A DNA stretch of 64,000 nucleotides from Rozella allomycis CSF55 (lineage: Eukaryota), in NCBI GenBank assembly GCA_000442015.1, contig KE561117.1, positions 124,001 to 188,000 of the forward strand. The letters are read 5' to 3'. Every line of letters begins with the position of its first letter. Within the stretch, counting starts at the first letter, position 1. This document shows positions 11,072 through 11,797 of this stretch, piece by piece. The notes under the pieces are model-generated. The model was not told where the DNA came from, made no database searches, and saw only the letters and a list, made by a program, of their open reading frames with translations. The position numbers and the translations under genes were made by a program.

Positions 11072-11797
11072 TTAATATTTACATGTTCGCCTTTTTCTGT
11101 GAAGCTTCTTTGGGCGGTTAGATTTTCTCCTTGTTTCGGACTTTTCACTTTGTTTTGATGTCTTAGCTTTAGCTGCAGTGTTTTGAGATTGCTTGTCACT
11201 TTGTGTTTTTGGAGTTGATTTATCTGTTTTTGTGGAAATGTCTGTTTCCTTTTTGCTTGAGTTGGCTCCGGTACCCTTTACTGTAACACAGTATTCAAAG
11301 AATTCTGGAAAATTTAAATGAGTTCCCGCAAGAAATACCCGAAGCAGACAATTTTCATCTTTACAAGAAGAATAATCTATGTTAATGGAGCTGGGGCAAT
11401 TAAAAGGTTCGTAGAATACTCTTTTGCTGCCAAGCCAAACCTCACATGGCCCGTGATGTATTAAACCTCCGATTTGCACCGGTCCTTTTGGATTTGAAAC
11501 AACAAATGATCCATCTGTGTGACCACATGTTTCACATTTTGCGATTGACGCTATATCCTTTAGCGTCGTTTTTGTCTTTTGCATCCAATCACGCAATCCC
11601 TTTGCATTTTCCTCTATTGGACCTGGCCAATCCACATTGTGAGCCTTGGGATCGAAGGTGCTACCGCATGTGCTTGGGTTCTGTTTAAAAGCCTCTTCCA
11701 CTGTTAGCTTAGCTGGAGGGTTAACTAGAAATGAATGGGCTGATACAAATGGTACAAGTAGCAAAGTTATACAGATTAATAGTTGAAACGATAACAT
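11072..11797 (-). CDS. Secreted copper LPMO-like protein resembling oomycete AA17
   Basis: 20-aa signal peptide ending VSA, then His1. Motifs CGHTD, LIHHGPCEVWL, IDYSSC...CLLR and EFFEYC. Ser/Thr/Lys linker and basic tail; intronless. Confidence 0.75.
   Translation of the reverse strand: MLSFQLLICITLLLVPFVSAHSFLVNPPAKLTVEEAFKQNPSTCGSTFDPKAHNVDWPGPIEENAKGLRDWMQKTKTTLKDIASIAKCETCGHTDGSFVVSNPKGPVQIGGLIHHGPCEVWLGSKRVFYEPFNCPSSINIDYSSCKDENCLLRVFLAGTHLNFPEFFEYCVTVKGTGANSSKKETDISTKTDKSTPKTQSDKQSQNTAAKAKTSKQSEKSETRRKSNRPKKLHRKRRTCKY

What the first reader, a model, noticed from the sequence alone, without database searches (positions are those of the whole stretch)
11072..11797. AA17-like lytic polysaccharide monooxygenase in a non-oomycete, with altered active-site residues
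Seen: predicted signal cleavage exposes His1 (VSA|HSFLVNP), followed by CGHTD, LIHHGPCEVWL, IDYSSC-x4-CLLR, AGTH and PEFFEYC. Established: AA17 LPMOs are pectin-cleaving virulence factors described from oomycetes, with H.GPCE[IV]W, DYSSC and Q.Y.NC motifs; AA10 enzymes use Glu and an axial Phe. Inference: here Q-x-Y is replaced by E-x-F, an AA10-like copper site on an AA17 scaffold, so the substrate may differ (for example chitin or glucan of a host wall). The gene is intronless and next to a tRNA in an intron-rich genome, compatible with horizontal transfer; Rozella-type parasites include oomycetes among their hosts.
Basis: partly seen in the sequence, partly recalled or inferred. Interest (0 to 1): 0.78.

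Follow-up and report, generated by a model that had tools for sequence, protein, structure and literature searches.

The report
AA17-type copper enzyme in a Rozella-like parasite
A parasite related to Rozella carries an intact gene for a secreted copper enzyme of a type studied so far only in water moulds, in a variant form that probably attacks fungal-type cell walls rather than plant pectin.

Summary

It belongs to the AA17 fold family. The three solved AA17 structures are the only credible PDB sequence hits (E 1.7e-5). The family profile matches them at E 6e-50 to 1e-45. A pLDDT-94 model aligns to them at Z 17.1-17.4, against 8.8 for the next family.

The copper-site change is real: PiAA17C H1/H96/Q162/Y164 correspond to H/H/E/F here. 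It is not unique. All 26 members of a supported "E-type" clade have Glu, and 12 of them have Phe. That clade includes Pythium and Phytophthora proteins, and the Phytophthora kernoviae member is joined or adjacent to CBM18 + GH19 chitinase.

The nearest relatives are two Rozella allomycis proteins (46% and 29% identity). The three form a clade, sister to an unnamed environmental clade.

Transfer to or from oomycetes is neither shown nor excluded. Codon usage is native, divergence is deep, and the unrooted tree gives no direction. The tRNA neighbour and missing intron are weak arguments. No expression data were found. This is a new variant of a known kind, of moderate interest.

The parts
11072..11797 (-). 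Complete single-exon CDS (241 codons plus stop) of the AA17-like protein P0001
   Evidence: A tblastn of relatives finds this as the only copy in the window.
11738..11797 (-). Predicted signal peptide, residues 1-20, ending V-S-A
   Evidence: Read from the sequence. The aligned position is hydrophobic and precedes His in relatives. Cleavage was not measured and no predictor was run.
11735..11737 (-). His21 codon, the predicted mature His1 and first histidine of the copper histidine brace
   Evidence: Aligned with residue 1 of chains 6z5y_A and 8s6s_A. The column is His in 53 of 54 rows that have a residue there.
11270..11737 (-). Catalytic LPMO-type beta-sandwich domain (residues 21 to about 176)
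   Evidence: AF2 model of residues 21-182: mean pLDDT 94.1, pTM 0.89. Foldseek E 1.2e-8 to 4.8e-8 to AA17 structures. VIA-align Z 17.1-17.4, rmsd 2.2-2.5 A over 150-154 residues.
11456..11458 (-). His114 codon (mature His94) in H-H-G-P-C-E-V-W, the second histidine of the brace
   Evidence: Aligned with His96 of 6z5y_A; I counted the position from the alignments. Invariant in 56 of 56 aligned relatives.
11297..11305 (-). Codons GAA TTC TTT = Glu165-Phe166-Phe167, in place of the AA17 Gln-x-Tyr (second-sphere Gln and axial Tyr)
   Evidence: DNA read. Aligned with Q162-A-Y164 of 6z5y_A (numbering counted by me). Column counts.
11075..11269 (-). Lys/Ser/Thr-rich C-terminal extension (residues 177-241), likely disordered, ending in a basic cluster with one Cys (..RKRRTCKY)
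   Evidence: Sequence. In the single-sequence model, whose overall confidence was poor, residues 146-225 are under pLDDT 50. 15 of 56 relatives also end in a Cys within a basic stretch.

Best explanation
The gene encodes a secreted, copper-dependent histidine-brace protein of the AA17 LPMO fold family. It belongs to a distinct "E-type" subclade in which the second-sphere Gln is always Glu and the axial Tyr is often Phe. [quoted passage not shown] Once reduced, and with O2 or H2O2, that copper would oxidatively cut a polysaccharide chain. The basic Ser/Thr/Lys tail with its single Cys may tether or dimerise the enzyme. The organism is a Rozella-type endoparasite, whose hosts have no pectin, and another E-type member is physically linked to chitin-binding modules and a GH19 chitinase. 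The most likely substrate is therefore chitin or another fungal-type wall polymer, attacked when the parasite breaches the host wall or reworks its own cyst or spore wall. Shown here: the intact ORF, the family and fold assignment, the residue equivalences, the clade structure and the native composition. Inferred: signal cleavage, copper binding, catalysis, substrate and biological role.
For: Family and fold: PDB phmmer hits only AA17 entries at E 1.7e-5. The 59-sequence family profile hits them at 6.2e-50, 4.3e-49 and 1.1e-45, starting at His1. The model has pLDDT 94.1, with Foldseek top four chains all AA17 and Z 17.1-17.4 against 8.8 for the next entry. Copper site: His21 and His114 are aligned with H1 and H96 of 6z5y and are conserved in 53 of 54 filled rows and 56 of 56 rows. 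Six conserved Cys are present: C91, C118, C134, C145, C150 and C170. Subclade: in the careful ML tree the E-type versus Q-type split has support 99/82, the Rozella trio 100/98, and the trio plus the environmental clade 96/81. Glu165 is found in 26 of 26 E-clade rows, against Gln in 27 of 30 of the rest. His160 is found in 26 of 26, against 16 of 30. Substrate hints: P. kernoviae E-x-F proteins are modelled as AA17-like + Chitin_bind_1 + GH19 (591 aa) or with three Chitin_bind_1 stretches + GH19 (861 aa). Another gene model makes it a separate 210-aa gene with the neighbouring locus tag. The Q219E mutant of MaAA10B gained chitin activity (PMC11137697, abstract). Insect chitin-turnover AA15s have axial Phe (PMC9156745, passage). 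Host: rozellids are obligate parasites of zoosporic fungi, oomycetes or phytoplankton (PMC10716661, abstract).
Against: There is no biochemical or expression evidence. No RNA run holds the gene, and the one RNA run laid gave nothing, which is uninformative. I could not read the model's coordinates, so the brace geometry and the position of Glu, Phe and His160 relative to copper rest on sequence alignment only. The only characterised AA17 activity is on pectin (PMC8393829, passage). PDB entries 8s6s and 8s71 are titled "oxidoreductase", so not all AA17 proteins need be polysaccharide-cleaving. The GH19/CBM18 link is in the most distant E-clade member and partly depends on gene models that differ between assemblies. 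The window protein itself carries no carbohydrate-binding module. Other family members are linked to GH7 or, according to the literature, to cellulose-binding domains (PMC8393829), so family context does not point to chitin alone.
Confidence: 0.6

Rival explanations
1. It is a pectin-cleaving virulence LPMO like Phytophthora infestans AA17C, with the same substrate and only cosmetic active-site differences.
For: It has the same fold family, with the AA17 structures as the closest matches. It also has a disordered C-terminal extension, as described for AA17 (PMC8615602, passage).
Against: It lies in a separate clade from the PiAA17C-like sequences. Gln and Tyr at the copper site are both replaced. 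Known rozellid hosts are zoosporic fungi, oomycetes and phytoplankton, not plants (PMC10716661, abstract). That fungal and oomycete walls lack pectin is my own knowledge.
Confidence: 0.05
2. It is not a polysaccharide-cleaving enzyme. It would instead be a histidine-brace copper protein with another job: copper capture or handling (as proposed for X325/Bim1-type proteins), or an H2O2-producing or small-molecule oxidoreductase that supports other enzymes (as reported for AA16).
For: AA16 proteins with a full histidine brace did not cleave polysaccharides but boosted AA9s (PMC10088020, title and passages). PDB entries 8s6s and 8s71, which are AA17-type, are titled "oxidoreductase". The Q-to-E change raised oxidase activity in an AA10 (PMC11137697, abstract). 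An X325 copper protein (6ibi) appears among the fold matches at Z 6.9. The window protein has no carbohydrate-binding module.
Against: The closest structures are of a family whose founding member is a proven LPMO. One E-type relative is linked to a chitinase and chitin-binding modules, which fits polysaccharide attack better than copper homeostasis. No GPI-anchor-like hydrophobic C-terminus is present; X325 proteins usually carry one (my recollection).
Confidence: 0.2
3. Origin: the gene family reached the Rozella lineage by horizontal transfer from an oomycete, or from the unnamed sister lineage, and then duplicated. The alternative is vertical descent from an old eukaryotic gene lost in most fungi.
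For: Among 30 relatives whose source names I looked up, 16 carry a species name: 2 from Rozella allomycis and 14 from oomycetes. No other fungus appears. If the root lies between the E-type and Q-type clades, Rozella plus the environmental clade nests inside oomycete sequences. Rozellids include parasites of oomycetes (PMC10716661, abstract).
Against: The tree is unrooted. The branch that separates {Rozella + environmental clade} from all the others is itself a bipartition (support 96/81), so a root there gives two sister groups and no direction. GC3 is 0.311, within the window range of 0.286-0.477. The codon-usage distance is 3.47, within the range 2.07-4.68. The Rozella-type copies are only 46% and 29% identical to the window protein, so any event is old. 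The 18 environmental sequences of the sister clade carry no taxon name and could be fungi. Intron absence and a tRNA neighbour are not diagnostic.
Confidence: 0.4
4. The ORF is a silent or decaying gene copy with no present function.
For: No RNA evidence was found.
Against: The ORF is intact from the signal peptide to the stop. All conserved Cys and both brace His are kept. The alignment-based model is confident. The DNA is present with few differences in runs of several studies.
Confidence: 0.05

Closest known systems
PiAA17C of Phytophthora infestans (PDB 6Z5Y), founding structure of CAZy family AA17, and the two Phytophthora sojae AA17-type structures 8S6S and 8S71
   Same: Secreted protein with N-terminal His. 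Second His in H-x-G-P-C-E-[IV]-W. Six conserved Cys. The same beta-sandwich (Z 17.1-17.4, rmsd 2.2-2.5 A over 150-154 residues). A disordered C-terminal extension.
   Different: Only 20-21% identity over the structural alignment. Gln162 becomes Glu and Tyr164 becomes Phe. A His five residues before the Glu is invariant in the E-clade, where PiAA17C has Gln. There are shorter loops before the last strand and an extra Cys pair (C44, C88). The host organism is a fungal-lineage parasite, not an oomycete. The substrate is unknown.
Rozella allomycis hypothetical proteins EPZ31514.1 (named by UniRef 'Chitin-binding type-4 domain-containing protein') and RKP20863.1
   Same: Nearest relatives (46% and 29% identity; E 2.6e-44 and 3e-18). 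They share the same E-F-F triplet, the same extra Cys pair, and form a clade with 100/98 support. EPZ31514.1 also ends in a basic, Cys-containing tail.
   Different: They are deeply diverged copies. RKP20863.1 is 416 aa with a long Ser/Pro/Asn-rich extension. None is characterised. The literature I could search lists Rozella LPMOs only as 'AA11' (PMC6690862, passages), and I could not tell whether those are these genes.
Oomycete E-type AA17-like proteins: Pythium insidiosum GLD96171.1, Pythium oligandrum TMW57579.1, Phytophthora kernoviae KAF4317863.1/RLN14692.1 and KAF4317864.1/RLN14691.1
   Same: They carry the same H-x4-E-x-[FY] signature and sit on the same side of the main split in the tree.
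   Different: They lack the extra Cys pair. The Pythium ones carry a different C-terminal Cys-rich module. The P. kernoviae one is joined or adjacent to CBM18 + GH19.
AA10 LPMOs with the Arg-Glu-Phe second sphere, and insect AA15 LPMO15-1 with axial Phe
   Same: Glu in place of Gln and Phe in place of Tyr next to a histidine brace (PMC11137697, abstract; PMC9156745, passage).
   Different: These are different families. Fold matches reach only Z 7.3-8.8 and there is no significant sequence similarity. The first position of the triad is His here, not Arg.

Membership tests
CAZy AA17 (LPMO) | Significant sequence similarity to characterised AA17 catalytic domains (CAZy families are defined by sequence) | tested here: met
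   phmmer gave E 1.7e-5 to 6z5y, 8s6s and 8s71, with no other credible hit. The profile of the window protein plus 58 relatives gave E 6.2e-50 to 1.1e-45 over the full domain. The dbCAN AA17 HMM itself was not available.
CAZy AA17 (LPMO) | LPMO beta-sandwich fold closest to AA17 structures | tested here: met
   Model pLDDT 94.1. Z 17.1-17.4 to AA17, against 8.8 or less for AA15, AA10, AA11, AA16 and AA9.
CAZy AA17 (LPMO) | Histidine brace: His at mature position 1 plus a second His | tested here: met
   His21 follows a V-S-A signal-peptide end, and His114 aligns to His96 of 6z5y. This holds at sequence level only. Cleavage, geometry and copper binding were not testable.
CAZy AA17 (LPMO) | Axial Tyr and second-sphere Gln (Q-x-Y-x-x-C), typical of the described AA17s | tested here: not met
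   E-F-F-E-Y-C here. I treat this as typical rather than defining. 3 of 30 non-E-clade relatives also have Glu and 2 of 30 have Phe, and AA10 and AA15 tolerate the same variation.
CAZy AA17 (LPMO) | Conserved disulfide-forming Cys (CG-T, GPCE, D-C, SSC, C-LR, NC) | tested here: met
   C91, C118, C134, C145, C150 and C170 are all present. The pairings were not checked in 3D.
CAZy AA17 (LPMO) | Oxidative cleavage of homogalacturonan (pectin) | not testable with these tools
   Needs an enzyme assay.
AA10 (Pfam LPMO_10) | Match to PF03067 | tested here: not met
   No Pfam hit at E<=10 other than two noise hits in the tail. Fold Z to AA10 structures is 7.3-8.6 only. UniRef's name 'Chitin-binding type-4 domain' for the Rozella and Pythium relatives was not reproduced by Pfam.
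AA11 | Closest structural or sequence similarity to AA11 LPMOs | tested here: not met
   AA11 structures 7p3u, 4mai/4mah, 9exj and 9hdg reach Z 7.9-8.6, half the AA17 value. There is no sequence hit.

The most novel reading that the evidence does not exclude
The window gene and its Rozella paralogues, together with an unnamed environmental clade, would represent a wall-breaching, chitin-active branch of the AA17 family, marked by a His-x4-Glu-x-Phe/Tyr second sphere. A fungal-lineage endoparasite would share this branch with oomycetes through an ancient cross-kingdom transfer. That would make AA17 a multi-substrate virulence family used against fungal as well as plant walls.
Probability: 0.25. 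Interest if true: 0.7.

Novelty: new variant of a known kind. Interest (0 to 1): 0.45.

Why it matters
AA17 is the youngest LPMO family. In the literature I could read it is treated as an oomycete family with one known activity, on pectin, and a role in plant infection (PMC8393829). This gene shows three things:
- The fold family also exists in the Rozella lineage, at the base of the fungi.
- The family has a deep second branch with a different copper environment.
- That branch also has unstudied members in oomycetes, one of them tied to a chitinase.

If the E-type branch acts on chitin or glucan, it would give a candidate tool for how rozellid parasites open host walls. It would also give a natural experiment on how Gln/Tyr versus Glu/Phe tunes LPMO chemistry. 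The practical value is modest until an assay is done.

Tried and rejected
- **Pfam.** Scans of the window protein and of 9 relatives gave no LPMO family, so Pfam appears to have no AA17 model.
- **Single-sequence AF2.** The model was useless (pLDDT 43.4) and was replaced by the alignment-based model.
- **Word-indexed homolog searches.** They added little: 2 hits for the single protein (one of them the window's own) and 11 for alignment A1 (also including the window's own).
- **Taxon of the environmental sister clade.** Cluster look-ups gave no names. The Atlas gave only a weak lead to a Zoopagomycota cluster at score 0.80, which I do not use. With the narrower A3 it matched 34 stretches, none confirmed by tblastn.
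- **C-terminal 4-Cys module of the environmental clade.** No Pfam hit at E<=10 for 4 of 4 modules tried.
- **Whole genome.** None is held for this window, so I could not count paralogues genome-wide or look for chitinases elsewhere.
- **Organism check with a neighbour gene.** The GT61 neighbour gave only its own masked record and distant plant and animal hits. Whether the window is R. allomycis itself or a relative stays open.
- **Expression.** No RNA holder was listed, and the one RNA run laid (X11) placed no contig on the stretch. Neither result says anything about expression.
- **Earlier findings of this scan.** Nothing relevant turned up.
- **The Science paper describing AA17.** It is not held. 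The active-site residue numbers of PiAA17C are therefore counted from the PDB alignments, and the pectin activity is cited second-hand. Supplementary files were not consulted.
- **Idea dropped: the tRNA as an integration site.** That is a bacterial concept, and here the tRNA is simply 52 bp downstream.

Full report

Yes. Window 11072-11797 on the minus strand is one uninterrupted ORF of 241 codons. A stop lies two codons upstream of the ATG.

Residues 1-20 form a short polar start, a 13-residue hydrophobic core and V-S-A, followed by His21. I read this cleavage site by eye; no predictor was available. It is backed by comparison. In a 56-row alignment of relatives the same column is His in 53 of the 54 rows that have a residue there. 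The mature chains of the solved relatives begin exactly there.

tRNA-Arg(TCT) sits at 10946-11020 on the same strand, 52 bp past the stop.

The flanking genes are split by introns. A protein-kinase domain is spread over the ORFs 10519-10851, 10154-10411 and 9664-10122, and a RabGAP-TBC domain over 12126-12956 and beyond. So "intronless among intron-containing neighbours" is correct.

**2. What is it?**

Pfam has nothing for it. Three lines of evidence point to AA17:

- **Sequence.** The PDB sequence search gives three hits at E 1.7e-5: 6z5y ("Lytic Polysaccharide Monooxygenase", titled a novel LPMO from Phytophthora infestans) and 8s6s and 8s71 (Phytophthora sojae). Nothing else is credible.
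- **Profile.** An exhaustive HMMER search of 1.84 billion representatives found 55 proteins at E<=1e-3, the window's own among them. A profile of the window protein plus 58 of these and related hits matches the three PDB entries at E 6.2e-50, 4.3e-49 and 1.1e-45, from their first residue to the end of the domain.
- **Fold.** The single-sequence model was useless (pLDDT 43). With the 59-row alignment, residues 21-182 fold at mean pLDDT 94.1 and pTM 0.89. Foldseek ranks four AA17 chains first (E 1.2e-8 to 4.8e-8, TM 0.66-0.76), then AA9, AA16 and AA11. VIA-align gives Z 17.4, 17.2 and 17.1 (rmsd 2.2-2.5 A, 150-154 residues) for the AA17 entries. The next value is 8.8 for an AA15, followed by AA10 and AA11 entries at 8.6 and below.

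The ESM Atlas look-up also puts an oomycete cluster first (score 0.91; TM 0.53). The fold-family assignment is therefore firm.

**3. The copper site**

Counting along the alignments, residues H1, H96, Q162 and Y164 of 6z5y correspond to H21, H114, E165 and F167 of the window protein (mature H1, H94, E145, F147). That AA17 has a histidine brace with an axial Tyr is stated in PMC10088020 (passage). The original AA17 paper is not held.

The codons at 11297-11305 read GAA TTC TTT.

I could not read the model's coordinates. The geometry of the site therefore remains an inference from alignment.

**4. The change is a clade trait, not a peculiarity of this gene**

A careful ML tree was built from 56 catalytic domains. 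Six truncated or fused rows were left out: P0012, P0020, P0036, P0048, P0050 and P0052. It splits the family into two sides with support 99/82.

The window's side has 26 rows:

- The window protein with two Rozella allomycis proteins (support 100/98; 46% and 29% identity).
- A sister clade of 18 unnamed environmental sequences (joint support 96/81).
- A Pythium subclade of four rows (two named: P. insidiosum, P. oligandrum; two unnamed) (support 99/83).
- A Phytophthora kernoviae protein.

Column counts:

| Position (window numbering) | E-type side (26 rows) | Other side (30 rows) |
|---|---|---|
| 165 | Glu in 26 | Gln in 27, Glu in 3 |
| 167 | Phe in 12, Tyr in 14 | Tyr in 28, Phe in 2 |
| 160 | His in 26 | His in 16, Arg in 9, Gln in 5 |

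The signature of this side is thus H-x4-E-x-[FY]. All three Rozella-type proteins have E-F-F.

The Rozella trio keeps the Cys pair C118/C134. The environmental clade has lost both together. Both groups carry an extra Cys pair at roughly the same two places, though not in identical alignment columns.

**5. What does it probably do?**

The mechanism follows from the family. A secreted mono-copper histidine-brace centre on a flat surface oxidises a polysaccharide chain after reduction, using O2 or H2O2.

For the substrate there are only hints:

- The P. kernoviae E-x-F protein is modelled in three assemblies as one protein with Chitin_bind_1 (one or three stretches) and a GH19 chitinase. In another model it is a separate 210-aa gene with the adjacent locus tag.
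- A Gln-to-Glu mutant of an AA10 gained chitin activity and oxidase activity (PMC11137697, abstract).
- Chitin-turnover AA15s of insects have an axial Phe (PMC9156745, passage).
- Rozellids parasitise zoosporic fungi, oomycetes or phytoplankton (PMC10716661, abstract), so pectin is an unlikely target.

Points against a simple story:

- The window protein has no binding module.
- Other family members are tied to GH7 or, according to PMC8393829, to cellulose-binding domains.
- Two AA17-type PDB entries are titled "oxidoreductase".
- AA16 proteins with a perfect brace do not cleave polysaccharides (PMC10088020).

My confidence is about 0.9 that this is an AA17-fold histidine-brace protein. It is about 0.35-0.4 that it acts on chitin or another fungal-type wall polymer, and about 0.2 that it is a non-cleaving oxidoreductase or copper protein.

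**6. The tail**

Residues 177-241 are rich in Lys, Ser and Thr and end in ..RKRRTCKY. Fifteen of 56 relatives, from both sides of the tree and including one R. allomycis protein and several Phytophthora and Pythium proteins, also end with a lone Cys in a basic stretch.

A disordered tail whose Cys makes a disulfide-linked dimer has been shown for a fungal AA9 and affects binding, activity and host penetration (PMC10990093, abstract). The same could apply here. This is untested.

**7. Origin**

Of 30 relatives whose sources I looked up, 16 carry a species name: 2 from R. allomycis and 14 from oomycetes. No other fungus appears. That patchiness is what makes transfer attractive.

Several results weaken the case or leave it open:

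- GC3 is 0.311, within the range 0.286-0.477 of 16 other long ORFs of the window. The codon-usage distance is 3.47, within the range 2.07-4.68.
- The Rozella-type copies are old duplicates.
- The branch separating {Rozella + environmental clade} from everything else is a bipartition of the unrooted tree, so no direction can be read.
- The organisms behind the 18-member sister clade are unknown.

The window holds only one copy. A neighbouring GT61 gene has no close named relative. So I cannot say whether the window is R. allomycis itself, with three paralogues, or a relative.

I put ancient transfer in either direction at about 0.4 and recent transfer from an oomycete host at 0.05 or less.

**8. 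Known or new?**

Full-text searches gave these results:

- "AA17" with "Rozella": 0 papers.
- "Rozella" with "lytic polysaccharide": 5 papers. The passages I read in two of them speak only of AA11 in R. allomycis and mycoparasites (PMC6690862; PMC6784888).

AA11 structures match the model at only Z 7.9-8.6. Whether those reported "AA11" genes are these genes I could not determine, because supplements are closed.

UniRef labels the R. allomycis, P. oligandrum and P. kernoviae relatives "Chitin-binding type-4 domain-containing protein". Automatic annotation has therefore already flagged them as LPMO-like.

The finding is a new variant of a known kind: an unstudied Glu/Phe branch of AA17 with members in a fungal-lineage parasite. 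It is not a new kind of system. Interest is 0.45.

**9. Limits**

- No expression data were found.
- No coordinates, no dbCAN and no whole genome were available.
- DNA runs from several studies hold the locus with few differences. This supports the assembly, but these runs may include its source.

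Noticed in passing
relatives P0014, P0021, P0025, P0026, P0028, P0033, P0039, P0047, P0049, P0056, P0086-P0090 (not in the window): The unnamed environmental sister clade carries a C-terminal module of about 45 residues with four Cys (pattern W-x-C ... L-[VI]-R-x-V ... Y-x-F-x-C-P-x-G-T-x-C ... Y-x-x-C) after a Pro/Ser/Thr linker. 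It had no Pfam match at E<=10 in 4 of 4 modules tried. It may be an undescribed carbohydrate-binding module. The same clade has lost the C118/C134 Cys pair of the catalytic domain.
   Followed up: partly
window 11075-11134 (-) and the C-termini of 15 of 56 relatives: A lone Cys sits inside a terminal Lys/Arg cluster at the end of the disordered tail. It recurs in Rozella, Phytophthora and Pythium members on both sides of the tree. It recalls the Cys-mediated dimerisation of an AA9 tail (PMC10990093, abstract).
   Followed up: partly
relatives P0027 and P0064 (unnamed sources): An AA17-like domain with Q-x-F is fused to a Glyco_hydro_7 domain (E 7e-30). This LPMO-cellulase fusion lies in the Q-type part of the family.
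   Followed up: no
window 30-1652 (+) and 4857-5720 (-): There are transposon remains: a copia-type reverse transcriptase (RVT_2, E 1.2e-23) and a DDE_1 transposase fragment (E 8.2e-9). The ORFs are broken, partly at single N positions.
   Followed up: partly
window 18855-20551 (+): An Argonaute gene (PAZ, ArgoMid, ArgoL2 and Piwi domains), split over at least two ORFs.
   Followed up: no
window 9664-10851 (-) and 12126-14164 (-): The direct neighbours are a Ser/Thr protein kinase in three exon-like ORFs and a RabGAP-TBC protein joined to a weak kinase-like region. Both have short introns.
   Followed up: partly
window 10941-11022: Contig word depth over the tRNA-Arg(TCT) gene is about 3 to 8 times that of the flanks in three DNA runs, as expected for a multi-copy tRNA gene.
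   Followed up: no
whole window: 19 isolated single N positions are scattered through the window, none inside 11072-11797. They interrupt several ORF translations with X.
   Followed up: no
window 44022-45176 (+), 15737-16600 (-), 16675-17823 (+), 37629-38606 (-): Other recognisable genes are a phage-type (mitochondrial) RNA polymerase N-terminal domain, a 2OG-Fe(II) oxygenase, a GT61 glycosyltransferase with no close named relative, and an MRJP/SGL-type beta-propeller.
   Followed up: no
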